Source: Malacoraja senta
Lineage: Eukaryota
Assembly (NCBI GenBank): GCA_038087875.1
Contig: CM075992.1
Coordinates: 2,854,001-2,914,000 of the forward strand
Direction: 5' to 3'
Length of the DNA: 60,000 bases
Part shown: positions 39,060-59,186 of the stretch, piece by piece
Numbering within the stretch: the first letter of the stretch is position 1
Layout of the letters: each line of letters begins with the position of its first letter
Notes under the pieces: generated by a model
Told to the model about the DNA's origin: nothing
Databases searched by the model: none
The model's input: the letters and a program-made list of their open reading frames with translations, nothing else
Translations under genes and position numbers: made by a program

Positions 39060-39525
39060 TCTTGACCCCTGCTCTCTGACCCCATGCCCTGCTCTCTGAC
39101 CCCATCCATCCCCTACTCTCTGACCCCCATCCCTGTTCTCTGACCCCATCCATCCCCTGCTCTCTGACCCCCATCCCCTGCTCTCTGACCCCCATCTCCT
39201 GCTCTCTGACCCCACCCACCTCATGCTCTCTGATCCCATCCCTGCTCTCTGACCCCATCCCTGCTCTCTGACCCCATGCCTTGCTCTCTGACCCCATCCA
39301 TCCCTGCTCTCTGACCCCATCCATCCCCTGCTCTCTGACCTCATCCCCTGCTCTCTGACCCCATCCCTGCTCTCTGACCCCATCCCTGCTCTCTGACCCC
39401 TTCTCATGCTCTCTGACCCCATGCCTTGCTCTCTGACCCCATCCTTGCTCGCTGACCCCATCTCATGCTCTCTGACCCCATCCCGGCCCTTTGACAGCCA
39501 TCCCTTGCTCTCTGACCCCATCCCT
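39060..39525. repeat. TGCTCTCTGACCCCATCC(ATCCC) minisatellite, 19-24 bp units
   Basis: Direct inspection. Confidence 0.9.
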
Positions 39526-40064: not shown

Positions 40065-40263
40065 NNNNNNNNNNNNNNNNNNNNNNNNNNNNNNNNNNNN
40101 NNNNNNNNNNNNNNNNNNNNNNNNNNNNNNNNNNNNNNNNNNNNNNNNNNNNNNNNNNNNNNNNNNNNNNNNNNNNNNNNNNNNNNNNNNNNNNNNNNNN
40201 NNNNNNNNNNNNNNNNNNNNNNNNNNNNNNNNNNNNNNNNNNNNNNNNNNNNNNNNNNNNNNN
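40065..40263. other. Assembly gap (199 N)
   Basis: Run of N. Confidence 0.99.
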
Positions 40264-41421
40264 NGATGCTGGTTTAAACCGAAGATAGACACAAAAAGCT
40301 GGAGTAACTCAGCGGGAAGGCAGCACCTCTGGTGGCGTTTTGGGTCGAGACACATCTTCAGATAGAGTTCTCAGATAGATAGAACTCACAAATAGAGTTT
40401 CTCTTAGGATGCATCCAGCCCCAGTAGATACATTCAAAGGGCTGGATCCTATGTCTGTTGATAGATTATCCCAGTTTGATGGTCAATGGGGTCATGGATA
40501 GACCAGTATTCTTAGAATCGGGAACAAGCTGCAAGTATTCAACTCATATGTTGATAATGGTTTTTCCCCAGAACCAAACGGTCTCCAGAAACACATTAGA
40601 TAGACACAAAATGCAGGAGTAACATAGCTGGACAGGCAGCATCTCTGAAGAGAAGAATTGGGTGACGTTTCGGGCCAAGGCCCTTCCTCGAACAGGCTGT
40701 TAGTACATGGTGATGATTCTTTGCCCTCTGGAGGAAGCAGTACAGTTTCTTGGCCGGAGGAGCAAGTGGTCCTATGAAAGTGGTCATACCATGCAAGAGT
40801 CTTTACAGATGGTACTTGGTGCTTGTGATCTGAATCTAGACACAAAATGCTGGAGTAACTCAGCGAAACATGCAGCACCTCTGGATAGAAGGAATGGGTG
40901 ACGTTTCAGAAGACAACTGGATCGTAATTAAGGGTGCGGAAACCAAGAAATGTTTTTAGTTGTCTCTCACTCTGGAGAACGAGGCTACCTTTAGCTTGCC
41001 ACATGTTATGCACCCTGTTGTAAGCTTACACAGAGATCAATGCAGCAGAGACAAAAATGCTGGAGAAACTCGGCGGGTGCAGCAGCATCTATGGAGCTAT
41101 CTATATATCTATCTGAAGTTCCTTCTTAAACACTTTGTCTACTCCACTGCGAAATCTCCTCAAGGTATGCCTACTTTGAAGAAGTTCTCCTCCTCCCTCC
41201 GAAGACAGTTTTACAACCTCCTCTCGAACTGCTCCCCCTCTGTGATTCCCCCTTCCCTCCAACTCTACGACCACATCCTAACCCAGTCAAATCCTAACCC
41301 AGACAAAATCGCTATATAGATGCTGCTGCACCCGCTAAGTTTCTCCAGCATTTTTGTCTACCTTCGATTTTCCAGCATCTGCAGTTCCTTCTTAAACTCA
41401 ATGCAGCATATCCTATTCTAT

Positions 41422-41790
41422 GGTACACAAAAATGCTGGAGAAACTCAGCAGGTGCAGCAGCATCTATGGAGCGAAGGAAATAGACAATGTTTCGGGCCG
41501 AAACCCTTCTTCAGACTGATAGGGGGTGGGGAGAAGAAAGGAAAAAAGGCGGAGGAGGAGCCCGAGGGCTAGGGGAGGGGAGGAGACAACCAGAGGGCTG
41601 ATGAAGGGGAGGGGACAGCAAGGACTAGCAGAATTGGGAGAATTCAATGTTCAAGCCCCCAGGATGTAGACTGCCCAAGCGGAATATGAGGTGCATTTCC
41701 TCCAATTTCCGGTGTTGCTCGCTGTGGCCATGGAGGAGACCCAGGACAAAGAGGTCAGATACGGAATGGGAGGGGGAGTTGAAGTGCTGA
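41422..41790 (-). mobile_element. Penelope-like element 3' end (reverse copy)
   Basis: Reverse-complement homologue of 28535-28888. Confidence 0.75.
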
Positions 41791-43605
41791 GAATATCCTA
41801 TTCTATGATTGCTGGGACATTCAGATAGGCACTATATAAATGCACATCTGTTCCTGCTTGCAGGAGCTTTTAAAACCTTCAGGAAAAAGTGAGTAATACA
41901 TGCTGCCTCTGCCAGCAACAACCACGACTTATAAAATAATAAAAACAAACCACTAAGCAACATTCCACCAAAGTACACAGAATGCCAACCTGATTGTACA
42001 AAGGCTACCGTCTCCATTAAACAAGCTGTGAAACTTCAAAGTGCTTCAGAAATTTTACAGGGAGTGTGGGGTTACACAGCACAGGGCCAGGTCGAGAAGT
42101 GGGATGGGGGCGGTCGCGGTTTAGAGCGCAACAATCTCTAGACTTGCATCAAAATCCCACATCAAGAGTAAAATCATGGGCAAGTATGCATAAACAATCA
42201 TAAAAACCATGCAGAGAAAGTCACTAAGTGAACTAACACACTAGCATGAATATATACAATACCCCCAAAGGAAACGAAAAGCATCCTTTTCAGTTCCATG
42301 CTATCACAATTACAATTCAACCCCTCTGGACGTGTGTGGGAAGGAACTACAGATGCTGGTTTACACCGTAGATACGAAATGCTGGAGCAACTCAGCTGGG
42401 CGGGCAGCATCTCTGGAGAGAAGGAATGGGTAAAGTTTTGGGTCGAGACCCTTCTGCAGACTGAGTCAGGGGAAAGGGAAACTAGAGATACGGAAGGGTA
42501 CAAAGGGAATGCAAGGTGTGAAAAGGACAGATCAAAGCAGACGATGTTCAAGGAAATGCAGAATGGTTCATTGTTGGCAGAGGGGAAGGCGACAGATAAC
42601 GAGGCATACAAACAGTAAAATTAACCAGGGAAAGAGAGAGAGATTACTTGAAGTTAGAGAAATCAATATTCATACCGCTGCCCAATGAGGTGCTGTTCCT
42701 CCAATTAGTGCTTGGCCTCACTGACAGTGGAGAATTGTGGATTCCTCTGGATTTTTGCTTTCTTTGCACTACCAAGACTTGAAGCAATGTTCAGAGGGAA
42801 GTTGAGCTGACAGTCAGGGTTGAATGATTAAACTGGCTTCACGGGTAATGCTCTCACCACTCAGAACTAAGCTCGAGGATTAAAAACCCACTCAAAAGAC
42901 GAGCAGAAAAACATGTGCTGGAGAACTGAGAGTGCTGCATTGCCAGAAGCAAAACCTTTTGGATGAGATGTTAAACAAAGGCCCGCATTCATGAAAGCTC
43001 CTCAAACAAAAATGCAGTGATTATCAGATTTAATTCTTTCATTCCCTGGAAAACATTGATCAATCCTTGAATATATTGAGTAATATATTACTCAATATAT
43101 TCTTACTGCTTATGGGAGCCTGCAGTGCAGAATCTTGTCATTATCACTTTACGAGATCTTATACCATACAAAGCGTTGGGCAGAAAGTGCTTGAGTAACT
43201 CAGCGGATCTGGCAGCTTCTTTGGAGAACATGAATAGATTAGATGACCTTCTGGGATGTAACCCTCCTTCAGACCAGCAGAAGGATCCCAACCCTGAAAG
43301 TCAACTATTCATGTTCTCCAGAGATGCTGCCTGACCCGCTGAGTTACAACCCTTTGCCGTTTTGTTTTGTATACCAGTATTTGCAGCTCCTTGTGGCTAC
43401 AATAGTGCTAACATGTTTCCAATTTTGCAACATTGAGCACGTTCTACATTTGTAAACACGTTAGAACCATCTAGTATCTTCGGTTAGAACATCCTGAAAA
43501 GGGGCACGAAAGATGCGGAAAAAAAATGCAAGCCCAAGATTTTAAAATTGAACGTTTTATTTCATTACAGATTTTGACACTGTTTCAAGCAGCCCAGTTT
43601 GAACA

Positions 43606-44245
43606 ATGCTGAAACTCACCATCAGCCTCTTCTTGCTGATCAGATTGGCAGGAGCTGAAAAGGCCACCTCAGAAACGGATGCAGGCAAGCTTGCACAGAC
43701 CGAGGAGTCCAACAGTCGCAATGCTCAGTCCCCGCAGAGTGCGCCATCCACCAGGTGTACCTACACCTTTATTGTCCCCCAGCAAAAGCTGACTGGTGCC
43801 ATCTGCCTGAGCACCAAGGCACCGGTGAGTGGGTACGACGGCGTGAACAAGAGCGAGCTGTTGGCCGTGAGGGAGGAGATGCGCGAGCAGCAGCAGCAGA
43901 TTGAAGACCTCAGGCAGATGGTGGAAGTGGACGGGCGAGTGATCGACGAAGTCAAGTCTCTCCGCAAAGAAAGCCGCAACATGAACTCCAGAGTAGCGCA
44001 GCTCTATGCCCAGCTGTTGCACGAGATCATCCAGAAGAAGGACGAGTCTCTGGAGATCTTCCAGCTGGGAGAACAGGGTACTTAACGTCACGACCGAAGT
44101 GCTGAGGTTGTCGATAAGGTACAAGGACTTGGAACGCAAGTACACAGCCCTCACCACCCTCATGAGCAACCAGAGCCGCACGATTGCTCAGCTGGAACAA
44201 CAGTGCAGACACGTAGTCCTAAAGCACAATCAACAGAATCAACAG
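43606..44245 (+). CDS. ANGPTL6: ANGPTL coding exon 1 (signal peptide and coiled coil); exon begins at 43571; +1 G at 44067-44069
   Basis: ttcattacag acceptor; ORFs 43606-44085 and 44006-44362 join at QL/ENRVLN; CAG/gtaaaa donor. Confidence 0.9.
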
Positions 44246-47200
44246 GTAAAAGACTTCAACTTTTCAAGGATAGATTTATTTTTACATTCATTCCTCTGGA
44301 TGCGAGCTTCAATGACAAGCTGGGCATTTATTGCCCAACCCCAAGTGATCTTTCAAACATAGAAACATAGAAAATAGGTGCAGGAGTAGGCCATTCGGCC
44401 CTTTGAGCCTGCACCGCCATTCATTATGATCATGGCTGATCATCCAACTCAGTATCCCGTACCTGCCTTCTCTCCATACCCCCTGATCCCTTTAGCCACA
44501 AGGGCCACATCTAACTCCCTCTTAAATATAGCCAATGAACTGGCCTCAACTACGTTCTGTGGCAGAGAATTCCACAGATTCACCACTCTCTGTGTGAAAA
44601 CAAAACATTCTCATCTCGGTCCTAAAAGACTTCCCCCTTATCCTTAAACTGTGACCCATGGTTTTGGACTTCCCCAACATCGGGAACAATCTTCCTGCAT
44701 TTAGCCTGTCCAACCCCTTAAGAATTTTGTAAGTTTCTATAAGATCCCCCCTCAATCTTCTAAATTCTAGCGAGTACAAGCCAAGTCTATCCAGTCTTTC
44801 TTCATATGAAAGTCCTGCCATCCCAGGAAATGTGGTTGCAAAGCCATTTCAGTCATGTTGCTGTGTTTGCAGCTTCAAATGGGCAAGGATGGGAGATTTA
44901 CTCTCCTGCAGTATATTAGTTACAGATCGGAGCACAGTCTCTCTGGCCTACGACATCCACACTGGCCGTCAAGTACCCAACCGAGCATGAAAGTCAAAGT
45001 CAAAGTCAATTTTAATCGTCACATGCACTCGAAGGTGCAGTGAAATGAAATTTGCATTTCGTGAATTTTCGTACCCCATTCAGATGTCTGATTGCTGGTA
45101 AATAGGATTAATGTAGACATGTACAACATATGATGAACTGAAGACCTGTTTCAATGCTGTCTGACGCGCTCACGAATTCCCTTGGGAAAGTGCTCTCATG
45201 GCCAACCGAGACACCACATTCCAGTCACACATTACGTTCTGATGTGATGCAAGATTTGTAAGAGTCAGTATTTATTATCCATTCTTAAATGTCCTCGGAA
45301 GGTGATGGTGAGCCAGTTTATGGATCCACAGCAGTCCGCAAGATAAAACTGCTTCTGCGGTGTTTTTGAGTAGGTTCATCCAGAATGTAGACCACACAAA
45401 GATGAAGGAACAGTAAGAGATTATTTACAAGTCAAAGGGTTCAAAATCACAATGGTGTCATTTGAAAAGAGATCTGTCTGCTATCCAAGTCTTCTTAGTG
45501 AGATCTGGCAAACCCCTCAGCTGGACAAACAATGAATATTCCCCAGCATCAGGTCAACAGATAAACAGAAAATGTAGCCTTGTTGACAGACTAATTAAAA
45601 CAAAAATATCACTCATAGTGAGAGTTTTGGAATTCCAAAAAACATTCTTAGCAGGCAGAAGGAACAAATAAATGAATTTAGAGTCTAGTTCTGTTACAAG
45701 TAAACATGAACTTTATCTTGAAGGAAGCTGCTAATTTTGTCTAATTTTTAAACCAACTTTAAATCTCATTGAGTATGTGGGAAGGAACTGCAGATGCTGG
45801 TTTAAGATAGACAAAAAGCTGGAGTAACTCAGCCGTTCGACAGCATCTCTGGAGGAAAGGAATAGGTGACGTTTCTGGTCAAGACCCTTCTTCAAATCCA
45901 ATTGAAACTGATTATATTGAACCATAGAGCAATGTTCATGGTTTTGTGGAATTCAATTCAAGCATATAGAGTGTGCACACTAAGAGATGGAAGGTATTCG
46001 CACTGTTGCTCTACATCAACAGAACAGATTAAACATCAGCTGCACTACACCAGCATTTTAATCATCTCTGCATACACAGAGGGGCAGGATATAATCTAGA
46101 GCACTTATGTCCCAATAGCTCAGGGAGCCAGCATTCTTGATAGCCAGAATGGGTTGCCCCTGGAAACTTAAAGCTGCCTGCCCATCACATCAGCAGCATT
46201 GCTTCAATGAGCCTGGCCTTCCTCTCCCTCTGATAATGCCACATTATGCTCCCTCCACACTGCAAATCCCATACATAATCGTTGCATTTCTTGGAATTCC
46301 AGACAATTAAGGATAACAATCAAAGTTTTTTTTAAAAAAGAAACCACAAGAAAATTTCAGGGTAAGAGGATAGAAATTATTTCCACTTGTGGCAGAATGT
46401 CAGCTCAGGAAGAACGTCCAAAATATTAGCACCAGATTATTATAGCATCAAGGTGAGAAAACAACCTCCAAGCAGAAGCTGATGGAAATGTCCCCAGGAA
46501 ATAGTTTTAAATGCTGAGATTTGTATTTCCTTTGTTAAGCAATTCTATGAATGGATATACGAAAAGGGTTGATACATAGAATTAGATCACGGTTAAACTA
46601 CAACTTCACTGAAAGGTGGAACAGACTTAAGGGGCAAGAGTATCCTCTTGCCTCTATGTTCCTCAACCATGCCACCTGAAATGCCTTGTTCAACTATATC
46701 ATACAGGTGAAAATCCCACATATCGAGTCTTGATCGAATAGCAGAAATATAGAGCAAATCTCAACCCCAATGTAGCACAGAGTCACCTGACATACAGGAT
46801 ATTACCATTTGCATAAAAATGATTTACAAGGGGGGTAGGGAAAAAGTCCACATATAGCTGGATGTGGATTGAGAAGGTAGGTCTGTATAAAGCTTCAGTC
46901 CTTTATGGTGAAACGGCTCGCAATAACGTCTCACTTGCAGCAGATTCAACTGAGACCCATATCCAGACATCTGTGCAAGTGTAACCCCAACAAGGCTCAG
47001 TACATGCAATAGGTAGAAGTCAGAGTCATACATCGTGGAAACAGGCCCTTCGGCCCAACTTGTCCCCACCGGCCAACATGTCCCAGCTACATTAGTCCCA
47101 CCTGCCCGAGTTTGGTCCATATCCCTCCAAACCTGTCCTATCCACGTAGGTAACAAGTAGGTAGAAGTACCACAGGACACTGATGGTCCAGTCTTCAGCA

Positions 47201-50200
47201 ATAACATCAAGTGGCAAAGAACCAGGAGATTGAGCAATACATAGAACAGTACAGCACAGGAACAGGACCAAAAACCATGATGTCTGCACCAACCGAAGAT
47301 AGAGACAAAATGCTGGAGTAACTCAGCTGGACAGGGGAATGGGTGATGTTTCGGGTCAAGACCCTTCTTCTAACCCTAACCCACTGAGTTACTCCAGCTT
47401 TGTGTCTATCTTTGGTTTAAACCAGTATCTGCAGTTCCTTCCTACACATTTTGTCTGCACCAACCATCTGACCCTCAATTCCCCATAATGGAGGTCTGGA
47501 GAAGTACAATGGAGGTCAAGAACTAAACAGGAGAAACCTTAGGGATGGATTTCATCCATACTAAAGTAACCCACATCAGCTGCTAATAACCCAATATTCA
47601 TTTCTGCTACGTCGGAAGATTCCCTCTGCTTGTGGTTTGACCGATAGGAATGTTTCTGCCTTCAACACATGGTCCGGGCTGTGAGTCCTTTCTGGAATAC
47701 TCCCTCAGATAGTGATCCATTTCAGCACAAGGGCGCATTCTCATGCTTTAAGTCAGGATATTAATATTTGTGGTTTTGCATCAGACGGTCCTTTGTACAA
47801 GTTGATATCTGGAATTTGTATACAAGCAGGAGGCAGAACAGATAGCCCTCGTCACCATCACTGGGAACAGTCTGAATGGCAGCTCCAACAAGAGCAAAGC
47901 TCCGGGCTCTGGCAATGAAATATTGAGAGATCAGATATACAGAATGACACAGGACAGACTCAAGAGAATGGAACAGTCTCCTCCCACTACAGTTCCACTT
48001 GTGACCACTACTAAATCATCAGGTAAGTGAACAATGAAGCTGAAGGGGGGTCTCGACCAGAAACGTCGCCTATTTCCTTCGCTCCATAGATGCTGCCTCA
48101 CCCGCTGAGTTTCTCCAGCATTTTTGTCTACCATAATCTACCACGATCACTTGGATCTAGCTGTGCGCAAATTAGCCATTGTGTTCACTGATCAAATTTC
48201 AAAAAGGTACTTAACTGGTTGTAAAATATTTAGGATGCTTTGCAAGAGATGCAAAAGCAATTTTAGACTCAGTGTCTTCTGTAAAAATAAAGTTGGGTGA
48301 ACACTGCAGCAGTTCATCAAATCTGAAATTAAGGAATCACAACACTAAGCTCCCAATGGCACAATGCATCTGATGAAACGGTATACAGGATTTGCACAAA
48401 GGTAGACAAAATTGCTGGAGAAACTCAGCGGGTGCGGCAGCATCTATGGAGCGAAGGAAATAGGCAACGTTTCGGGCCGAAACCCTTCTTCAGACAGGAT
48501 TTTCACATTTATTTTATGAGTTTTTGAATATTGCATTTGTTTAATTAATACTTAAACCAAATCTACGCACTGAAGTATTGAAATAACACACTGACATTTA
48601 TGCCTGTTTAAATGTACATGTTTAATTTAGGCATTTTTGAATTATGCGATGCTTGTTAGAAACGTAACCCCCACGTAAATCGTGAGGTGCAGTGTACACT
48701 CCTGTACAGTAAGTGAGAAAAGGTTCATGACTGGGCTTTTTAAAGACCTACATCCCCAACAATTCCCTCCTATTCACCGACAATCTCTAATTTGCTCAAG
48801 GACTGCATGAGTGCAGGTTGTAACTGTGCTTTGAAGCTCAAAGTAGTAATTAAGAAACTTTAAAACCTATTTACACGAAGCGCAGGGGAGAAAGAACAAA
48901 AATGCTTCATTGACCAGTAACGTTGAGCTTTTATTAATTGCCAGTCGCATTTCAGATAACAGAGCATGCCTTTGTCAGCAGCTTTCAACCTCATTCCCTG
49001 TGGAAAATAGGCCGCAGCTATTGCAGAAATGAACTGGACGTAATATCTACTACCAAGTTCCTATTCCCCATAGCTCTCATATTCCTACAATGTAACAAGG
49101 TCTGACCAGCTGTGACTTCAACAAAACTGCAGGTCCGAAGAAATCGCGACCCAAAACGTCACCCATTCCCATTGTATTAGAGCTATTGGATTAGTTAGAC
49201 AGAGCTCTAGGGGCTAGTGGAATCAAGGGATATGGGGAGAAGGCAGGCACGGGTCATTGATTGGGGACGACCAGCCATGATCACAATGAATGGCGGTGCT
49301 GGCTCGAAGGGCCGAATGGCCTCCTCCTGCACCTATTTTCTATGTTTCTATCCAGAGATGCTGCCTGCCCTGCTGAATTACTCCAGCATTTTGTGTCTAA
49401 CTTCAGTGTAAACCAGCATCTGCAGTTCATTCCTACTCATTCAGGCCATTACTATCAGCCTGCAGAATATCACACAGAAGTGGAAATGAGTGAACCAGTC
49501 TGCATATAAACCAGCGTTCTTGTTAGCACTACACTAGTGGTCAGTCCAGGCTGTACCATCTCTAGAAGTTAAGTTGTGACCTCTTAGATTAGATTACAGG
49601 CCCAAGCACTACATCAGCTGAAGGGCAGGACTGACAATTTAATTAGGTACAGCACAGCCAAGTGTTTTGCTGCCAGTAAAATAACCATAGCCACAGATAG
49701 AAGTTAGACAAACAGCAGGGTCTGATCAACCATCAAACCAACATCAGCAAGAAATGTTGTCTCGTTTTTAAATTCAGGATCACATCAGGCAGAAGGTCAC
49801 CATAAATGGAATGTAGAATCCATTGTACATCACAGGAACAACATTTGGCCCACAATTGCATATTTAACTGACAACATCTGCCTGCATGTATCTCCCCCCC
49901 CCCCCCACTCCCCATTTCACAGCCATTCCAAGCACCCACCACTGAGTGTAAAAAAAAAACTTGTCTATCACTCAACTCAAACTGTTTTACTGTAGCTGAA
50001 GGTAGACAAAAATGCTGGAGAAACTCAGCGGGTGAGGCAGCATCTATGGAGCGAAGGAATAGGCAACGTTTCGGGTCGAGACCCTTCTTCAGAGTCTGAT
50101 CAACCATCAAACCTACATCAGCAGGAAATGTTGTCTCGTTTCTAAATTCAGGATCACATCAGGTAGAAGGAGGTCACCATAAATGGAATGTAGAATAGCA

Positions 50201-52943
50201 CATCACACTGTAGCTGAAGTCCTTTATGTCAGACAAGGTGTGAATAGATCCCAAACTTTTTGTTTGAGGGAGGAAGTGCAGATGCTGGTTTAAACCGAAC
50301 ATAGACACAAAACGCAGCAGTTCAGGCAGCATCTCCGGAAGTGGCGTTTCGGGTCAGGACCCTTTAAGACCTTTTGTTTCCAATTTTCTGCTAACTCCTG
50401 CTGGATTTATGACCATTTGACCACTCCCCCCCCCCCTCCCTCCCCCACAGAAGGTGGTTGGGAAGGTGAAATGGGTAAAGTTGTCAAAATAGTTCATGGT
50501 AAGCATCACGCGGAATCTTTTTTTTTTTTTTTTTTTAAATAAATGCTGGGAATTATGGAATAACAATTTTCATTACATTGTGACCTCTTGAGCAGGTCCC
50601 TGGAAAGACTGTCTCCAGGTTTTAGAAGACGGCCACAGATCCAATGGAATTTATCTAATCAAACCAAAAAATGTCAACCAACTGATGCAGGTGTGGTGTG
50701 AACAGCAGAAGGAAGCTGGTGGTTGGACAGTCATCCAGAGGCGCCAAGACGGGTCGGTCAATTTTTTTAGGACTTGGGAGAATTATAAGGTTAGTTAAGC
50801 AAGTGTCAAGTATATTGGTCTTGGGTCCATCTCTAGAAGCAAGTATTATGATCAATTGATGGGTAGGTGTGTCAAGGATTTTCTACCCAGTAATTAATGA
50901 CTATGACAAAACTTGCTCTTTAAAAATAAGAGAGAAAATAATCCAAATTACTTAAATTTATTTTCATTGAGAGGTGGTGACAGAGACCTTGTATAGGAAA
51001 TGGATTTAGTTTAGGTGGCTGGACATATTTAGATTCGGAGTTGTCCAATATAGTCACTGGCTCTTTGGCCCATTCCACATGTACAAATTCCACACGCTTG
51101 CAGGACATTGGGAGGGGAAAAGACGACATCAAGACCCATGTTGAAGTGTATAAAGATTCAAGTGTTGTACCAGTAAATAGATAGGTTTGACAATGAGCCT
51201 CAATGCTGTTTTTCTTAAAATATTAATACTGAATAGTGAAGTACTGCAAATTGAAAAATTGAAACTAAGTAAACTATCTACACTGGACGAATGACCTGCG
51301 GATTAGAATCGATGTGTGCGATTGCCTTTTAAAGAATCCAAAATGGGCGGCACGGCGCCCTAGTGGTAGAGCTACTGCCTTACAGCGCCGGAGACCCGGT
51401 TTGATACTGACTATGGGTGCTTGTCTGTACGCAGTTTGTACGTTCTCCCCGTGACCAGTGTGGGTTTTCTCCGAGATTTTCGGTTTCCTCCCACACTCCA
51501 AAGATGTACAGGTTTGTACAAAAATTATACACACACACCATTTTTTACGACTAAACAATCCGTTTTCATTTGCAGCAAGGCTTTGGGAACATAGATGGCG
51601 AGTACTGGCTCGGCTTGGAGAACATCTACTGGCTGACAAATCAGGATGACTACAAACTCCTCGTCCTCATGGACGATTGGCAAGGGAGGAGAGTGTTTGC
51701 CGAGTATGATAACTTCTACCTGGAGTCAGAGAAAGATTTCTACAGGTTGCGACTAGGCCACTATCGTGGGAATGCTGGAGACTCCTTATCATGGCACAAC
51801 AACAAGCAATTCACCACACTGGACAGAGACAGAGACCAATACACAGGTAGGGTCTTCTCTGCAGTTAGAGCACACAGCCAAAGATTAACCAAAAAGGAGG
51901 CTCCTTTCAAAAAACATAAGCCCGAGTTGATATTTTAGTACAGCTGCCAATGACTTGAGTGTTCGTCTGTTATAACAATTACCTGTAAAATTACCCACTC
52001 CTGTAATGAAATAGACTACAAAAATGAGTGATAAGTTCTATTATACCTACATTTCAGTAACACCTTCCAAAATGCTTTACAGCCAATTAAATACTTCTCT
52101 TAAATATGTACCAAACATGCAGCCAACTGTTGCACTCTGGGCTCCTAACAATCCCAGTGTTACGATTGAGGACTTAACATTAGTAGTACAGTAGACTCTT
52201 CTGTCCCTCACACCTACTCTTTAAATATAAACTTTAAATGGAAAATTACTTGTATTATAAATATAAAATTTGAATATAGCATTTATTCTATGTCCTAACT
52301 ATAAGACTTTTTTTTTAAATATCTTTAAAAGTAAAATGTATTCTATGTCTGCAACTTTAGGTGGAGCTTTCAAAACTGAGAATCTATCTCATCTCTATTT
52401 GAGTTTGACATTGAACAATGCTGGTTTACACTGAAGATCAACACAAAATGCTGGAGTAACTCTGTGGGCCACGCAGCATCTCTGGAGAAAAGCAATGGGT
52501 AATGTTTCGAGTCGATGAAATCTGATGAAGGGTCTCAACCCGAAACAACATCTATTCCTTCTCTCCAGAGATGCTGCCTGACCCGCTGAGTTACTCCAGC
52601 ATTTTGTGTCTATCTCTAAAATTTCAGTAACCTTAGCATGAATAAACGTTTTCTAGTCTTACTCCAGGTTATCTAAGCTATTCACGTTGAGGATGTATTT
52701 GAATGAATTCTTCAGTACACTATTGCTTTGATCAATATCATTCTATTATCGTTAATAGGTAACTGCGCCCATTACCAGAAAGGAGGTTGGTGGTACTACA
52801 CCTGTGCTCACTCAAACCTGAATGGAGTATGGTACAAAGGAGGGCACTACCGCAGCAAGTACCAAGATGGCGTTTACTGGGCTGAATTCCGTGGAGGAGC
52901 CTATTCTTTAAAGAGAGTAGTGATGATGATGCGTCCAAGCTAG
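43606..52943 (+). CDS. ANGPTL6: Angiopoietin-related protein, ANGPTL6-type (signal peptide, coiled coil, fibrinogen C domain); 5 coding exons, about 493 aa after correcting one frameshift
   Basis: RCTYTFIVPQQKLTGAIC, LRKESRNMNSRV, VWCEQQ..GGWTVIQRRQDG, GDSLSWHN, DRDRD, FRGGAYSL, plus an intron after the coiled coil, favour ANGPTL6 over ANGPTL1/2. Confidence 0.8.
44356..44827 (-). mobile_element. CR1 LINE 3' fragment in an ANGPTL intron
   Basis: Near-identical to the 3' end of the 33.4-35.0 kb element. Confidence 0.85.
47830..48022 (+). CDS. ANGPTL6: ANGPTL linker exon: EAEQIALVTITGNSLNGSSNKSKAPGSGNEILRDQIYRMTQDRLKRMEQSPPTTVPLVTTTKSSG
   Basis: aagcag NAGNAG acceptor (start could be 47827), CAG/gtaagt donor, NEIxRDQ motif, phase 0/1. 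Confidence 0.8.
50596..50789 (+). CDS. ANGPTL6: ANGPTL fibrinogen-domain exon (194 bp): GPWKDCLQVLEDGHRSNGIYLIKPKNVNQLMQVWCEQQKEAGGWTVIQRRQDGSVNFFRTWENYK
   Basis: gagcag acceptor, gttagt donor; fibrinogen-related domain motifs. Confidence 0.93.
51576..51846 (+). CDS. ANGPTL6: ANGPTL fibrinogen-domain exon (271 bp): QGFGNIDGEYWLGLENIYWLTNQ...DRDRDQYTG
   Basis: ttttcatttgcag acceptor, gtaggg donor; lies within ORF 51570-51938. Confidence 0.94.
52759..52943 (+). CDS. ANGPTL6: ANGPTL last coding exon: NCAHYQKGGWWYYTCAHSNLNGVWYKGGHYRSKYQDGVYWAEFRGGAYSLKRVVMMMRPS*
   Basis: taatag acceptor; TAG stop at 52941-52943. Confidence 0.94.
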
Positions 52944-53270
52944 TCATCGATGTAACATATTCATATATTGGATTGCAATCATATATAGAATATAATCAAT
53001 AACTATTATTGATGGGCACCTCTTTATACTTTTAAAATACCATGTTATAAGCAAAGATACAGACAATATAACTACCAAGTTAAAGAATAATCTCTTAAGA
53101 CAAAAGCAGACCCAAATCTTTCAGGGAGTAACCTCTAACAGGCTGAATGTACCAGTGGTCTATATGCTGCTTGCTCTTTGTGGTCTGTGACTTTTATTTA
53201 TGAAGCTATTTTTGGTACAATGAAAAGCATGCTCCTCTGTGTGTATGTAGGAACACAGCTCCTCCCATTG

Positions 53271-53276
53271 AATAAA
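53271..53276 (+). terminator. Candidate polyadenylation signal AATAAA for the ANGPTL gene
   Basis: AATAAA about 330 nt after the stop, in an AT-rich 3' UTR. Confidence 0.4.
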
Positions 53277-54402
53277 TCATTTTCCATAAATACATCATTT
53301 TGATGTACCAAGGAATGACTGTATTAAAGCGGTAAAGCAGCACAACTATTTTTCTGCTGCACATGGTGAGTGAATTATACAAAGTGTCAGGAACCAGAAC
53401 CCGAACACAAGTCTGACAGCACGATGTAGTAGAACCACATCTTTAACACGAGAGAATGTCAAAGACAGTTAGTGAAGCTGGTGGACCCAATCAAACATGG
53501 CAGACCAAAGGCCTTCTGTTGTTGTCGTGCATTACATCATTAACATGGAATATCATGAAGCAGGGGAAAATAAATCACAAATTTTGCAGCATTAAGAATT
53601 TAATTTTTCATTTTAGGTTTGTTCAAAATTGAAATAGCCAAGGGCATCACTAGGGTTAGATTGTGGTACATGGAAATCTGTAACCGGGAACCGCCATTAG
53701 GAAAGACTCAGACAGTAAAAACAGTATTGAAATGTTGCGAGGACTAGAATTAGATATAGATGTCCATTCCGGACCTGGAACTGCTGTCAAAGCAACAATT
53801 CCTTATCTCTTGGACTGGATCCTAGCAAAACATTAGAGCCACTGCAGCAGCACATGGCAGCAAAGTTTGCCTCATATCGTTCAAAAAGCACAAGGTGGAA
53901 TGACCAACATCTTTCTCACAACCTAAAATAGAGTCTGGGTATCCTTCAAATGTAAAGACAATTGGAAGGTTAAAAAGCCTCTCTCCAACCAACACAACTG
54001 CAGATCCTCTATATGGATGCATTTTATTGTGCCTCTCTTAAGCAAAACAAAACTTTTCACTGTACCTGGAAATAATAAACTAAACAAGATTTGTGGAACA
54101 AAGGAGATCACTCGGCCTCTCTACAGTTCTGCCATTTGCTTAGATCACAGCTGATCTATATCATAAACTCATCAATCTTAATTCTATAATCCTTAACACA
54201 TTAAGATCAATATATTTTCATTGAGGTTTTCACTTGATACCATTTTTTGGTGGGGAATAGATCTAATTCCAAAATGTTTCCTCATTCTGTACTTACCCAG
54301 CAGGGCAGATTGTTAACTTCCAACTGCAATACTTTACTCATCTTAAACATTTCATTTTAATCACCCCAAAACCTTCTGCTCAGCAGCCCATATGATTCAA
54401 TG

Positions 54403-54679
54403 GGTAGCACGGTGGTGCAATGATGCAGTTGCTACCTTACAGCACCAGAGGCCCAGGTTCGATCCTCACTACGGGTGTTGTCTGTAAGTTCTACCTGTGA
54501 CAGTGTGGGTTTTCTCCGGTTTCCTCCCACACTCCAAAGACGTACAGGTATGTAGGTTAATTGGCTTGGTATAACTGTAAATTGTCCCTAGTGTGTGTAG
54601 GATAGTGTTAGTGTGCTGGGATCGCTGGTCAGCGCGGACTCAATGGGCCAAAGTTTCTATGCTGTATCTCTAAACTAAA
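54403..54679 (+). mobile_element. HE1-like SINE
   Basis: A/B boxes, V-domain and tail. Confidence 0.8.
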
Positions 54680-56730
54680 CAAACCATCCTTAACATTAAT
54701 ACAATTACGTTTAAAATACATTTGGACAGGCATCCAGATAGACACATTTGCAGGAATATGGTCAAAACAGGAGCAATGGGACTAACTCGGATCAGTAACT
54801 TGGTTGGTATGGATGAATTAGGCTGCAGGGTCTGTTGTGATGCTGTATAACTCTATGAAGATGACTAGCTGTTTAGGTTAAACCTGAATAGAGGTCCAGG
54901 CAAATATCATTCAACCTCTTGAATTCCCGACATGAAACATCTTCCATTAAGTCTGAAAATGGAGCTTGACCTGAAAACATGTCTGTCCCTTTCCCTCCAC
55001 CGATGCTGCCTGAACAGTGATTTTGTTCAAGTTTCCAACTTCTGAGGTCTTTTTAAATCAAGTTGTCTTTCAATTCTGGTTGCTATCACCAGCCTGTTAA
55101 TTGTTAATGTAGGAAGAATGGTTCTCGACCCGAAACATCAGGAAGGATCTCAACACAAAACATCACCCATTCCTTCTATCCAGAGATGCTGCCTGTCCCA
55201 CTGAGTTACTCGAGCATTTTGTGTCTATCTTAATTGTTAATGTAAACTTACACTTCTAAACTCTGTGCAAACAGACCACTGTAAATAGGTGAACAAAAGC
55301 ATTGTGCTGTAACTTAAGATCAAAGATGTGCGAGGCAATTAATTAATTTTCAGCGAGAGACCAAGTCACACGCACAAGAAAGTAACCTGGATTATTTGAC
55401 TCGACAGCTATTTTTAAACTGGATGCAAATGAAGATAGCACCTCACTTCAAATATAGATTCCTGTACTTCCCCAGAGATCACAGCCATACCTCTGCACTG
55501 GGTTACAATTAGATTCAACCGCTGTAACTCCAATCTGCTGTTAAGTTGCTTAATGTTAAAGAAACTCTCACCCCAACTTGAAAGCAGCTGATTCCTGCTA
55601 AGTCTATTGGTGTATAGCATTTTCTGTTTGTAACAAAAGTTATTAACACTCAGGTCAGGCAGCACCTGTGGAAAGAGAAACAGCATTTCTGGTCTGGGAC
55701 CATTCAATACTGGGTAAGAGAAAAACTTGGATTTGAGGAAGCAGAGCAGGACTAGTTAAAAGAAGGGAACATCCTGGCATCAAGCCTGGACATTGTGGCT
55801 CAAAGAGACATTTTGTGCTGTACTGTTCATGTTCCATCTCTATGGCCATGATCCAATGTGGCCATTATGGAAAAGTGAAGATCAGACTAAACTTCTTAGT
55901 CTGTACAATATGCTGATAATGTAAAGCGAGACATGCTAACAGGCCAACTATACCTCATGAAAAATAATGCATTGGAGCTGGTTGCCATGGTCAGGGACAA
56001 ATTCCCTTTAATGCTTCTTCCTGCTTGCAAACTATCTTCGGTTTAAACCAGCATCTGCAGTTCTTTCCTACACATACCCAGTAGCACTCGAGCGTCTCCA
56101 TTCTTCTTGAAAATAATCCCAACTTTGATCGGAAGTACAGGCTTCCAGATGATTAATCACTCGGGTTGTCTGAAGAATGTTGCATCTGAACATGGAACAC
56201 ACAACTTTGCCAATAAAATGAAATTGTGCACAGGTGAGCATGGTGGGTGTGAAAGAGGTAAACATCACTTGGAGGAGTTGGCTTCACATCCTGTTCCTAT
56301 AATTTCCCCATGTTTCTTTCTTCATCCTGAATCATACCACATGGCCACGATTACATAATGGAAACTATAAACCGACACTTAAAGGCGCCACATGCCTGTA
56401 CAATATATTTTTTTCGTTAATGGCAACCTCCTGCTAAGAGTTTCAAAGTCAAAGACTTCTGAGAACCATTAAGCTCTTGAACACATAAATACCATTATAC
56501 AACAAATTTGTAAAATGCAAGTTTATATAGAAGACAAAATAGCCAGACTAAACTGCTGGATATACAGTACTCCCACTGTGCATGAGAACAGGGAAGGCTG
56601 CATATTCTGTTGTGTTGCTGCAAGTAAGAATTTCATTGTTCTATCTGGGACATATGACAACAAAAGACTCTTGACTTTTGAACTGGGCAAATTGGTGGGT
56701 GCTGAGGGGAATCTTTTGATATACCATTTT

Positions 56731-57228
56731 GTCAATTGAGGGAGTGCAGTGTAGGTTTACAAGGTTAATTCCTGGGATGGCAGGACTGTCATATGCTGAG
56801 AGAATGGAGCAGCTGGGCTTGTACACTCTGGAGTTTAGAAAGATGAGAGGATATCTCATTGAAACACATAAGATTGTTAAGGGTTTGGACATGCTAGAGG
56901 CAGGAAACATGTTCCCGATGTTGGGGGAGTCCAGAACCAGGGGCCACAGTTTAAGAATAAGCCATTTAGAACGGAGACGAGGAAACACTTCTTCTCACAG
57001 AGAATGGTGAGTCTGTGGAATTCTCTGCCTCAGAGGGCGATGGAGGCAGGTTCTCTGGATGCTTTCAAGAGAGAGCTAGATAGGGCTCTTAAAAATAGCA
57101 GAGTCAGGGGATATGGGGAGAAGGCAGGAATGGGGTACTGATTGGGGATGATCAGCCATGATCACATTGAATGGCGGTGCTGGCTTGAAGGGCCGAATGG
57201 CCTACTCCTGCACCTATTGGCTATTGTC
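56731..57228 (+). mobile_element. CR1 LINE 3' fragment in a RALGPS intron
   Basis: [24 protein letters not shown]... peptide and tail. Confidence 0.85.
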
Positions 57229-57728
57229 AAACATAATGTAGGGATTTTACTGTGGAACAATTGTTTTGTTTTTCCATACTCTTTAAATCCACATTAACTG
57301 TACAACATAGAATAGAATTTTGTCACCACACCAAGAACACAAATAACTGCCTCCAAACACACTCAGAAAACTCATTTGCACATAGTATCAAGTTTACAAG
57401 AAGATAATTACTGTTCACAAGACCCAACAAGCAAAAGCTTTGATAGTTTGTAATTTGATTTGTAAATCTGATCTTATTCATGTCTTACCATTTAAGATAG
57501 CAATACTTCAAAGTCAAACATTCATCTGCAAGCTTTAATTAGGAAGGGCCACAGCCACCACCCAAGGGAGGCCTCGGTGTGGCTAAATCTAATCTCCGTG
57601 GTTTACTTCAGATCAGCTGGGGTGAAGACAGGGCCAAGTAAAAAGTCAAAAATAAAATGCATTAAAGCAGGCAAAATTGCAATCCCTGAAGAATCAGCCT
57701 CCTGAAAGAGACCTGAAATCAGACTCAC

Positions 57729-57855
57729 CCAAATATGGGATGCATGGTTTATTTCTCAAGCAGCTGATGTAAGTTCTTAGTTGCTTGTAATTGTCTTCTT
57801 TGGACATCAACGTCTCCAGTTTCTCAAATGTAGCCTTATCTTTCCTGCTCAGCAA
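57729..57855 (-). CDS. RALGPS-family RasGEF exon (127 bp): [43 protein letters not shown]
   Basis: ctttaactgtag acceptor, gtgagt donor; matches RALGPS1/2 LLx[18 protein letters not shown]...PxIPYLG; absent from the ORF track. Confidence 0.92.
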
Positions 57856-59093
57856 CTACAGTTAAAGAACAAAACAGGACTTTACTGCAACATCTTCTTG
57901 CACGTTAAGAGAAAGATTGTTTGCACTTTTCTAATCACCAGCACCATTATTATTTTTAGTATCAACTGGTTAGGGCATCCAGCACTGATTGTAATACTCC
58001 AATCTTCCCCACAGACCTGTCAATCTCCACAATCCCAGTGCCCTTCCAACTCTTTTGTTACATTATTACATCAATCTCAAACTAATCTCACAGCCACACT
58101 TGCTCTCCAAAGCGCTGTATATATCCAAAACAAATCATCACCACCTCGCTACCTCACCTTAGTTTTACACCAATACAAATTAATCCCACAGATCCATTCT
58201 GTCCAAAGCCCTGTATTAACCCCAAGATACCAATGTCCCATCCTTTCACCACAATCATTTATCATTCCACGAGTGCCACTACCCTTTAAAACAGTCTTGT
58301 GCAAGCCATGAGGACATTTAATGTGTTATTTTGGTCAGTCAGTGGATAGCCACACGAGAAGCAAATTCAAGTTGAAATTATATACAAACAAAACCACTGA
58401 ATAAACTGAGCAAATTCAAAGACATAACATTGGTGGGCTTAATGATTCTGAAAACTAATAATAGGCTGTAGTGACTGCCCAAACAAAATTAATGAATCTT
58501 GTTGTTTTTTTTTAATATAGTTTAATTAGCAAACCAGATTTCTTCTGTCACTTCTACTAACTATAGATTACAATTTATTTTCATTAGCGGCACAGATATC
58601 AGGAATCGTTGTCAGATCCCAGCATCTCTCAATCTTGCTTTGAAATTATCAAGAGCCTTTCCAATAATAAAACTTTAAAAGTTTGAAATATTTAACTCAG
58701 GTAACATGTACAAAGAGAGAAATTAACATTTTCAGTCAATGACCTCACATCATGCTGGAGTCTAGGTGGACAGGTATCCTTGGAGAACAAAAGCAGTGAA
58801 TTAAACAATAATCTGTAATATCTCCAGTTTCAGAAGTCACTAGTCAGAAATATTATTTTTCTTTTCCACAAATGCCACCCATTGAGTATCGCAAGTATAT
58901 TCTGTTTAAACCTTGCAATTCCACCAGCATCTACTATTGATGTACCACTAATGCATGTTAGATCTGCATTGAAGAGATACCACACAAGGCCATAAGACAA
59001 CATTCTCAGCATGGTACACTTCAGCAATGCAGAAGCTCTCGTGAAAAAAAAAATTTGAATCAAGAAACTCAAAAAAAATGTCCCTTCACTTGC

Positions 59094-59186
59094 CATCCAT
59101 GTTTTTGACAGCCTGAATATTGGTGTGCTTTGTAAAGCTGAGATGACCGCCATCAAGCCATGTAGATTATTGAGTTCCTGCAGTTT
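59094..59186 (-). CDS. RALGPS-family RasGEF (CDC25) exon (93 bp): [31 protein letters not shown], with a GC donor
   Basis: gttgcag acceptor; ATG/gcaagt donor; homologous to RALGPS1/2 KLxELNNLHxLMxVVSxLQSAPIFRLTKTWA. Confidence 0.9.

What the first reader, a model, noticed from the sequence alone, without database searches (positions are those of the whole stretch)
43571..59186. ANGPTL6-type gene nested antisense in a RALGPS-family gene: a likely third RALGPS/ANGPTL paralogue pair
Seen: two minus-strand RALGPS exons end in ...PCIPYLG (57729), and the ANGPTL gene lies just 3' of them on the opposite strand with no further RALGPS exon in between. Established: ANGPTL1 sits inside RALGPS2 and ANGPTL2 inside RALGPS1, while mammalian ANGPTL6 has no RALGPS host. 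The nested gene has ANGPTL6 hallmarks (QKLTGA, CEQQ, RRQDG, GDSLSWHN, DRDRD, GGAYSL, an intron after the coiled coil). The host exons differ from both RALGPS1 and RALGPS2 as I recall them. Inference: a third whole-genome-duplication copy of the nested pair, whose host survived here and was lost in mammals.
Basis: partly seen in the sequence, partly recalled or inferred. Interest (0 to 1): 0.75.

Follow-up and report, generated by a model that had tools for sequence, protein, structure and literature searches.

The report
Skates keep third nested RALGPS/ANGPTL pair
This stretch of a skate genome holds an ANGPTL6 gene back to back with exons of a third RALGPS gene, a fast-evolving copy that likely arose in the second vertebrate genome doubling, likely still carries ANGPTL6 inside one of its introns, and was likely lost in bony vertebrates, which would explain why human ANGPTL6, unlike its two sister genes, has no host gene.

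Summary
Largely confirmed. The plus strand holds five ANGPTL6 coding exons (43571-52943); the minus strand holds two RasGEF exons (57729-59186), 72 of 73 residues identical to skate proteins that RefSeq calls RalGPS1-like or RalGPS2-like. These form a third RALGPS clade (100/100), sister to all RALGPS2 (99/94) and about five times faster; origins as a cartilaginous-fish duplicate (p=0.003) or beside RALGPS1 (p=0.022) are rejected. In 13 of 15 elasmobranchs both genes share a contig length. In little skate they lie on chromosome 39, the published 1-beta partner of the RALGPS2 chromosome, with RALGPS1 and ANGPTL2 on chromosome 31. Corrections: nesting is inferred, not seen, as no 3' host exon lies in the window and a 200-N gap interrupts at 40065; the first ANGPTL6 coding exon has one extra base, probably an assembly error; several listed hallmarks are not diagnostic; no copy was retrieved from any bony vertebrate, so the loss probably predates mammals. 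New detail: all 13 sequences lack the proline motif kept in 20 of 20 RALGPS1/2. The gene exists in databases under wrong names; I found no paper describing it. A new member of a known class: ohnologues retained in cartilaginous fish.

The parts
43571..44245 (+). ANGPTL6 first coding exon (AG acceptor, ATG at 43606, signal peptide and coiled coil). One extra base near 44065 in a short G run shifts the frame; stop at 44083-44085 as assembled. At least one non-coding exon lies upstream.
   Evidence: relatives' contigs lay 673 nt on 674 window bases with one gap and carry 289 and 336 further 5' letters (table 8)
47830..48022 (+). ANGPTL6 linker exon (tandem acceptors; follows the intron after the coiled coil)
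50596..50789 (+). ANGPTL6 fibrinogen-domain exon 1
   Evidence: Pfam Fibrinogen_C E 1.5e-18
51576..51846 (+). ANGPTL6 fibrinogen-domain exon 2
   Evidence: Pfam E 5.4e-26
52759..53290 (+). ANGPTL6 last exon: coding to the stop at 52941-52943, then 3' UTR with a poly(A) signal at 53271
   Evidence: Pfam E 3e-14; signal positions; a relative's contig ends at 53290
59094..59186 (-). Third-RALGPS exon (RasGEF domain, 31 codons); followed by a GC-AG intron
   Evidence: Pfam RasGEF E 4e-9; 97% to little-skate protein P0121; GC donor read from the sequence
57729..57855 (-). Third-RALGPS exon ending ...PCIPYL-G, the last host exon before the ANGPTL6-bearing intron
   Evidence: lies inside a 2031-nt contig of a relative's run (record 12)
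40265..57728 (-). Inferred host intron (minimum extent) that holds ANGPTL6 antisense; its far end is not in the window
   Evidence: no RALGPS exon here by tblastn; full-length orthologues continue for about 360 more residues
40065..40264 (.). 200-N scaffold gap; the 3' half of the host gene is inferred to lie in or beyond it

Best explanation
The window holds skate ANGPTL6 and, on the opposite strand, two exons of a third RALGPS gene that is likely the beta-subgenome copy of RALGPS2 from the second vertebrate genome doubling and that likely encloses ANGPTL6 in the intron after its PCIPYLG exon. History (inferred): one nested RALGPS/ANGPTL unit was doubled twice; three copies survived: RALGPS1/ANGPTL2 (2-alpha), RALGPS2/ANGPTL1 (1-alpha) and this pair (1-beta). 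Sharks and rays kept the whole third unit; bony vertebrates probably lost the host's exons and kept the passenger, leaving ANGPTL6 free-standing. Function (inferred from homology, untested): the host encodes a 540-570-residue Ras-independent exchange factor for Ral GTPases, with a CDC25-type catalytic domain and a C-terminal PH domain for phosphoinositide membranes, but without the proline-rich motif of RALGPS1/2, so it would be recruited by lipid alone and not by SH3 adaptors. ANGPTL6 is a secreted coiled-coil/fibrinogen-domain protein transcribed from its own promoter antisense to the host. The extra base in its first coding exon is probably an assembly error (about 85%).
For: Shown: exons match skate RasGEF+PH proteins at 72 of 73 residues and RALGPS1/2 at 68-80%. 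Careful ML tree, 37 rows: third clade 100/100, RALGPS2 of cartilaginous plus bony vertebrates 100/98, the two sisters at 99/94; AU tests reject third clade + cartilaginous RALGPS2 (p=0.003) and third clade + RALGPS1 (p=0.022). Five species have both a third-clade and a RALGPS2 protein, only 52-59% identical. ANGPTL tree, 36 rows: window protein inside the elasmobranch ANGPTL6 clade (100/100), on the side of bony-vertebrate ANGPTL6, apart from ANGPTL1+2 (100/99). Both genes share a contig length in 13 of 15 species, with consecutive accessions in five RefSeq sets and one draft set; two split models break exactly at the PCIPYLG boundary with the ANGPTL6-cluster gene as next accession. Little skate: that contig length (12,333,785) is chromosome 39, listed as 1-beta opposite chromosome 10 (1-alpha), which carries Ralgps2-3; chromosome 31 (2-alpha) carries Ralgps1-2 and Angptl2-1 (PMC10115646 supplement). 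Rate 5.1 times that of RALGPS2 in cartilaginous fish, as published for beta copies in general. Spliced ANGPTL6 contigs in two relatives' runs and a 2031-nt contig holding the host exon in one. Catalytic domain: 87 of 99 otherwise invariant columns kept in both skates, 64 of 99 in all ten rows. Proline motif: 0 of 13 against 20 of 20.
Against: No 3' host exon is in the window and no exon coordinates of any relative were seen, so enclosure rests on inference. The third clade has a long stem (0.5), and the tool warns that the AU test shares the model's pull on long branches; RALGPS1 was represented by only four bony-vertebrate rows, two of them partial. The ANGPTL tree is unrooted, has no mammalian ANGPTL6 row and cannot test the predicted ANGPTL1+ANGPTL6 sisterhood; the skate fibrinogen domain scores higher against human ANGPTL2 (422 bits) than human ANGPTL6 (349). 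Accessions are far apart in 4 species. Six elasmobranchs gave an ANGPTL6 but no third RALGPS in my capped lists. Absence from bony vertebrates and chimaeras is a non-finding from truncated lists and 50%-identity representatives. The same-organism run did not show the row at the frameshift. Eight of 13 third-clade proteins have some other PxxP further down the linker. Coelacanth ANGPTL6 and RALGPS2 share a contig length.
Confidence: 0.85

Rival explanations
1. The pair is broken in this species: the two RALGPS exons belong to a truncated or decaying gene whose 3' half is gone or elsewhere, the gap joins unrelated pieces, and the ANGPTL6 frameshift is real.
For: No 3' host exon in the window; G+C is 0.486 left of the gap and 0.421 right of it; the coding sequence has one extra base; the gene family is fast-evolving.
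Against: Both host exons are open with intact splice sites and 72 of 73 residues identical to full-length skate proteins; ANGPTL6 is 97-98% identical to intact skate proteins with no second lesion; the extra base sits in a G run; the adenylate-kinase gene left of the gap also lacks its 5' end, as expected if the gap hides real sequence.
Confidence: 0.08
2. The host is a cartilaginous-fish-specific duplicate of RALGPS2 that came to lie around ANGPTL6 by segmental duplication or transposition.
For: Sister to RALGPS2 in the tree; retrieved only from elasmobranchs; long stem could distort placement.
Against: AU p=0.003 against grouping with cartilaginous RALGPS2; it lies on the published 2R partner of the RALGPS2 chromosome; it would have had to land so that an ANGPTL paralogue sits at the same intron boundary, which is unlikely by chance.
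Confidence: 0.04
3. The locus is a divergent RALGPS1/ANGPTL2 locus (or its 2R sister), mislabelled by the first reader.
For: Several RefSeq names read RalGPS1-like and ANGPTL2-like; the fibrinogen domain's best human hit is ANGPTL2; no cartilaginous RALGPS1 protein was in my tree.
Against: Skates and rays have a separate ANGPTL2 on another contig; little skate has Ralgps1-2 beside Angptl2-1 on chromosome 31; AU p=0.022 against third clade + RALGPS1.
Confidence: 0.03

Closest known systems
RALGPS2 with nested antisense ANGPTL1, and RALGPS1 with nested antisense ANGPTL2
   Same: Small ANGPTL gene antisense in an intron of a RALGPS host (PMC6371847, passages). Same RasGEF + PH layout; partial RALGPS1- and RALGPS2-type models break at the same PYLG boundary, so the intron position is shared.
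   Different: A third clade, 53-56% identical to the other two on average; about five times faster; post-catalytic proline motif missing; passenger is ANGPTL6 with an extra intron after the coiled coil; retrieved only from sharks and rays.
Vertebrate ANGPTL6 (Angptl1-2-6 cluster of Costa et al. 2017, PMC5237311)
   Same: Orthologue by tree, by RefSeq names in most elasmobranchs and by the little-skate chromosome that also carries Dnmt1.
   Different: That paper had not identified angptl6 in elephant shark or little skate (passage); here it is present and still tied to a RALGPS host.
Ohnologues retained in cartilaginous fish but lost in bony fish (19 cases in Marletaz et al. 2023, PMC10115646)
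   Same: Beta-segment location, raised rate, apparent loss in bony vertebrates (section passages).
   Different: Here the lost gene is the host of a nested gene that survived. The paper's list of cases was not in the files I could read, so RALGPS may or may not be on it; the skate gene appears in its tables only as 'Ralgps2-1' (inferred identity).
RefSeq 'RalGPS1-like / RalGPS2-like' models of sharks and rays (e.g. XP_055520177.1, XP_032868204.1, XP_051898129.1)
   Same: These are the orthologues of the window's host exons.
   Different: Automatic names that alternate between 1-like and 2-like; not recognised as a separate paralogue.

Membership tests
RALGPS family | CDC25-type RasGEF domain | tested here: met
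   Pfam RasGEF on both exons; orthologue P0121 against human RalGPS1 structure 3QXL E 2e-118
RALGPS family | C-terminal PH domain, no Ras-association domain | tested here: met
   In the full-length orthologues, not in the window: Pfam PF00617 + PF00169 only; 2DTC match E 7e-42
RALGPS family | Proline-rich SH3-binding (PxxP) motif between the domains | tested here: not met
   0 of 13 third-clade rows have it at the conserved place, 20 of 20 RALGPS1/2 rows do; that this segment is the named SH3-binding motif is recalled. So: a RALGPS by descent that lacks the family's eponymous motif.
RALGPS family | Exchange activity on RalA/RalB | not testable with these tools
   Only conservation measured
RALGPS1 orthologue | Groups with RALGPS1; linked to ANGPTL2 | tested here: not met
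RALGPS2 orthologue | Groups inside RALGPS2 | tested here: not met
   five species have both
ANGPTL6 | Signal peptide, coiled coil, fibrinogen domain | tested here: met
   Fibrinogen_C; 97-98% identity over the whole length to named skate ANGPTL6; signal peptide and coiled coil by homology, no predictor run
ANGPTL6 | Groups with bony-vertebrate ANGPTL6 apart from ANGPTL1/2 | tested here: met
   100/99, unrooted, no mammalian row
ANGPTL6 | Synteny with the DNMT1/EIF3G region (human 19p13.2) | tested here: met
   In little skate, not in the window: chromosome 39 carries Dnmt1, Carm1, Nfix, Fbxl12, Gpr108; gene ids next to the pair include Olfm2, Swsap1, Ppan, Atg4d, Epor. Human positions of these genes are recalled; the angptl6-eif3g-dnmt1 group is from PMC6976628.
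ANGPTL6 | Intact reading frame in this genome | tested here: inconclusive
   One extra base in the assembly; same-organism run row not displayed
Nested antisense gene | Host exons on both sides of the inner gene | tested here: inconclusive
   5' side shown; 3' side outside the window or in the gap; indirect support from full-length orthologues, split models and consecutive accessions
2R ohnologue (beta copy) | Duplication before the shark/bony split and location on a paralogous chromosome | tested here: met
   chromosome 39 = 1-beta, chromosome 10 = 1-alpha
2R ohnologue (beta copy) | Nested partner shows the same branching (ANGPTL6 sister to ANGPTL1) | not tested
   No outgroup ANGPTL was retrieved; tree unrooted

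The most novel reading that the evidence does not exclude
Sharks and rays keep an undescribed RALGPS3: an expressed Ral exchange factor that shed its SH3-binding motif and became adaptor-independent, still wrapped around ANGPTL6; bony vertebrates deleted the host from around its passenger, so ANGPTL6 is a nested gene set free by host loss, and remnants of host exons or host-embedded enhancers may persist beside ANGPTL6 in slow-evolving bony fish.
Probability: 0.45. Interest if true: 0.55.

Novelty: new member of a known kind. Interest (0 to 1): 0.4.

Why it matters
It completes a three-copy set of a nested gene pair and gives a simple reason why human ANGPTL6 stands alone while ANGPTL1 and ANGPTL2 are intronic. 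It dates the nesting to before the vertebrate genome doublings and offers a clean case of a host gene lost while its passenger was kept, which makes it possible to ask whether host introns supply the passenger's enhancers. It also corrects database names in a dozen shark and ray genomes and points to a natural RALGPS variant without the SH3-binding motif. It is not a new kind of system: retained beta-copy ohnologues in cartilaginous fish are a described class.

Tried and rejected
Own genome: none is held, so the 3' host exons and the other two loci could not be sought in this species. Motif scan and tblastn for 3' host exons in the window: nothing. Run search: no RNA holder listed on record; run X24 of the same organism gave no cover of the exons, which is no evidence either way; its share-of-words figure for X1 (0.97 of 62 words) is compatible with one difference but does not locate it. 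Joint, indel and loose-end tables were swamped by repeats and cut, so neither the host's splice joints nor the frameshift row was displayed. ESM Atlas: a 61-member chordate RasGEF+PH cluster ranks first, separate from the 1876-member one; taxa only to phylum, not used. Best-hit naming by human structures was rejected as misleading. DRDRD, GGAYSL, RRQDG and QKLTGA were rejected as diagnostic marks. Rooting the ANGPTL tree was not possible without an outgroup. Earlier findings of this scan: none. Literature: 'ralgps3' 0 papers; 'ralgps'+'shark' 4 papers, none on the subject by title and abstract start; searches listed no paper describing a third RALGPS; 12 of 24 supplementary files of the whale-shark paper had no mention, 12 were not searched; one shark-genome paper was not held. 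No structure or complex prediction was run, as sequence evidence already settles the fold and no Ral protein was available.
Full report
What is in the window. No whole genome is held for it. The plus strand carries five ANGPTL coding exons at 43571-44245, 47830-48022, 50596-50789, 51576-51846 and 52759-52943, all with AG/GT borders; the last three match Pfam Fibrinogen_C. The minus strand carries two RasGEF exons at 59186-59094 and 57855-57729, separated by an intron with a GC donor. A tblastn with eight RALGPS proteins finds only these two exons in all 60 kb. The organism is a skate by similarity: the ANGPTL protein is 97-98% identical to thorny- and little-skate ANGPTL6 and the two host exons match their RALGPS-like proteins at 72 of 73 residues.

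First, a 200-N gap lies at 40065-40264. Left of it are minus-strand exons of a two-domain adenylate kinase (the AK5-type label is recalled), which lacks its 5' end; right of it, the RALGPS gene lacks its 3' half. The window therefore shows the ANGPTL gene directly 3' of the PCIPYLG exon on the other strand, with at least 17.4 kb free of host exons, but not the closing exon. Second, the ANGPTL coding sequence is 1483 nt, 494 codons plus one base; the frame changes near 44065 in a short G run and stops at 44083-44085. Contigs from two relatives' runs lay 673 nt over 674 window bases with one gap (records 9 and 13).

The inner gene is ANGPTL6. The first-exon search listed 120 of 650 hits; the top twelve are skate, ray and shark proteins, nine named ANGPTL6. 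In a careful ML tree of 36 rows the window protein sits in a 15-row elasmobranch clade (100/100) that joins lungfish, axolotl, coelacanth, reedfish, paddlefish and sturgeon proteins, cut off from ANGPTL1 and ANGPTL2 by a 100/99 branch. The tree is unrooted and has no mammalian ANGPTL6. Against a naive reading, the fibrinogen domain scores higher on human ANGPTL2 than on human ANGPTL6 (422 against 349 bits), though it shares GDSLSWH with the latter. The intron after the coiled coil is real here; two shark ANGPTL6 fragments end or start at residue 217-218, while most of the ANGPTL2-type N-terminal fragments run on to about residue 255-259 of the reference, which fits an intron that ANGPTL2 lacks (inference). 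Costa et al. 2017 (PMC5237311; passages and the phylogeny section read) define the Angptl1-2-6 cluster and had not found angptl6 in cartilaginous fish.

The host is a third RALGPS. The exon search gave six hits: five elasmobranch 'RalGPS1/2-like' proteins at 86-95% and one lamprey protein. These proteins average 56% identity to RALGPS2 and 53% to RALGPS1, against 66% between RALGPS1 and RALGPS2; five species have both a third-clade protein and a true RALGPS2, 52-59% alike. In a careful tree of 37 rows rooted on invertebrates, the third clade (11 rows with the window's exons) has 100/100, RALGPS2 of cartilaginous and bony vertebrates 100/98, RALGPS1 100/99, and the third clade is sister to RALGPS2 at 99/94. 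AU tests, named before they were run but after the tree was seen, reject the third clade with cartilaginous RALGPS2 (p=0.003) and with RALGPS1 (p=0.022). Limits: a stem of 0.5, only four RALGPS1 rows, all bony, five rows under half filled; the rows were a chosen subset of about 150 named RALGPS proteins, and three third-clade rows (one stingray model lacking an exon, two bamboo-shark near-duplicates) and the whale shark were left out. Tip-to-node length is 5.1 times that of cartilaginous RALGPS2.

Linkage in relatives. Both genes were retrieved for 15 elasmobranch species; in 13 they share a contig length, and in the other two (whale shark, cloudy catshark) one partner is on a small scaffold. 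RefSeq accessions are consecutive in five (thorny skate, sawfish, small-spotted catshark, white-spotted bamboo shark, smooth-hound), within ten in two, far apart in four and not looked up in two. A draft bamboo-shark model begins exactly at the exon after PCIPYLG and its next locus tag is the ANGPTL6 fibrinogen part, on a 136-kb scaffold; the smooth-hound model ends at PCIPYL and the next accession belongs to the ANGPTL6 cluster. Partial RALGPS1- and RALGPS2-type models break at the same boundary. Six species gave ANGPTL6 without a third RALGPS in my capped lists. Accession order and contig length are indirect; I saw no exon coordinates.

Chromosome context, from the supplement of the little skate genome paper (PMC10115646; passages, the chromosome section and parts of the spreadsheet read; two PDFs too large and one scanned PDF not read). 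Chromosome 39 ends at 12,333,785, the contig length of the little-skate third RALGPS and ANGPTL6; chromosome 31 ends at 28,182,869, that of its ANGPTL2. The paper's table lists chromosome 10 as 1-alpha and 39 as 1-beta in row L, and chromosome 31 as 2-alpha of group M with 2-beta missing; M's 1-alpha/1-beta cells are blank in the extracted text, probably merged with L's (inference). Ralgps2-3 is on chromosome 10; Ralgps1-2 and Angptl2-1 are 0.4 Mb apart on chromosome 31. A third RasGEF+PH gene, 'Ralgps2-1' (LE16245), has ids next to Gpr108 (on chromosome 39), Olfm2 and Swsap1, and 'Angptl2-2' (LE16465) is next to Ppan, Atg4d and Epor; I take these to be the pair (inference). Both are in the table of genes differing between anterior and posterior pectoral fin, with the same sign. 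Chromosome 39 also carries Dnmt1, a neighbour of angptl6 across vertebrates (PMC6976628, passage). The tree's RALGPS2 sisterhood, the chromosome pairing and the raised rate agree with a beta copy of the second doubling, as that paper and Simakov et al. 2020 (PMC7269912, passages) describe for beta segments.

Expression and enclosure. Two relatives' runs hold contigs that join all five ANGPTL6 coding exons at their ends. One also holds a 2031-nt contig whose letters 461-588 are the PCIPYLG exon on the minus strand with 3 differences; only this piece was displayed. If its numbering runs in mRNA sense, 460 letters upstream fit the 155 codons upstream in the skate protein and 1443 downstream hold the rest (inference). 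Since orthologues continue for about 360 residues and none of these lies between 57728 and the gap, the next exon must lie beyond ANGPTL6 if the gene is whole and the contig correct. I put nesting at about 90%.

How it likely works. Human RALGPS proteins are Ras-independent RalA exchange factors with a CDC25-like domain, a lipid-binding PH domain and an SH3-binding region (PMC8699646, PMC9139244, PMC4858283; passages). The third clade keeps 69% identity to both in the catalytic domain and 62% to RALGPS2 in the PH domain, but 29% in the linker; 87 of 99 otherwise invariant catalytic-domain columns are kept in both skates and 64 of 99 in all ten rows. The proline run that follows the catalytic domain in 20 of 20 RALGPS1/2 rows is missing in 13 of 13 third-clade rows, replaced by a cysteine-bearing stretch; eight have another PxxP near the PH domain. 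That this run is the SH3-binding motif is recalled. These exons are outside the window. The likeliest reading is an active, membrane-recruited Ral exchange factor under relaxed constraint and uncoupled from SH3 adaptors; none of this is tested. In humans the expression of ANGPTL1/2 is not significantly associated with that of their hosts (PMC6371847, passages), so the nesting is probably inherited architecture more than co-regulation.

When was the host lost? No third-clade protein came from a chimaera or a bony vertebrate: 6 of 6 hits, 120 of 1949 listed, and 148 further representatives, of which two scored best on the third clade and both are sharks. These lists are cut and clustered, so this is a non-finding; I put loss in the bony-vertebrate stem at about 70%. 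Humans are described as having two RALGPS genes.

Novelty. The proteins are in RefSeq under alternating names and the skate gene is in a published table as Ralgps2-1. Searches for a description found none, in a library that lacks most subscription papers; the list of 68 differentially retained ohnologues in PMC10115646 was not in the files I could read, and bioRxiv supplements are closed. Verdict: a real, apparently undescribed third member of a known nested pair and of a known class of retained ohnologues; interest 0.4.

Noticed in passing
window 2040-38990, minus strand (exons near 38980-38810, 37912-37739, 32702-32590, 31712-31503, 27700-27610, 4940-4780, 2150-2060): A two-domain adenylate-kinase gene (AK5-type by recall) whose 5' end is missing at the gap. 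Whether it is AK5 or an AK5-like paralogue, and whether it is the true neighbour of the third RALGPS, was not settled.
   Followed up: partly
window 40065-40264: 200-N scaffold gap with G+C 0.486 on the left and 0.421 on the right; both flanking genes are incomplete toward it.
   Followed up: partly
window 44064-44068: One extra base in the first ANGPTL6 coding exon relative to relatives' spliced contigs; likely a homopolymer error.
   Followed up: partly
window 59093-57856, minus strand: The intron between the two host exons has a GC donor; whether RALGPS1/2 share it was not checked.
   Followed up: no
window 47824-47836: Tandem AG acceptors at the ANGPTL6 linker exon; skate and ray RefSeq isoforms differ by one residue, which would fit alternative use.
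   Followed up: partly
P0014 and P0212 (coelacanth): Coelacanth ANGPTL6 and RALGPS2 share a contig length (172,207,807), unlike bichir, reedfish and lungfish, where the lengths differ; possibly a lineage fusion of the alpha and beta chromosomes.
   Followed up: no
P0126, P0476, P0341, P0345, P0334: Lamprey and hagfish each have at least two RALGPS lineages; one groups loosely (90/87) with RALGPS2 plus the third clade, which would fit the first doubling.
   Followed up: partly
bioRxiv 10.64898/2026.02.04.703868 (passages): A second passenger gene, jhc1, lies in ralgps1 next to angptl2 in non-mammalian vertebrates; I did not look specifically for a counterpart in this intron.
   Followed up: no
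window 35480-37734, 39066-39524, 21495-23900, 33349-35030: A 23-base tandem array of about 100 copies, a 20/39-base array, a long CA microsatellite and a LINE reverse-transcriptase fragment inside the adenylate-kinase introns; ordinary repeats.
   Followed up: no
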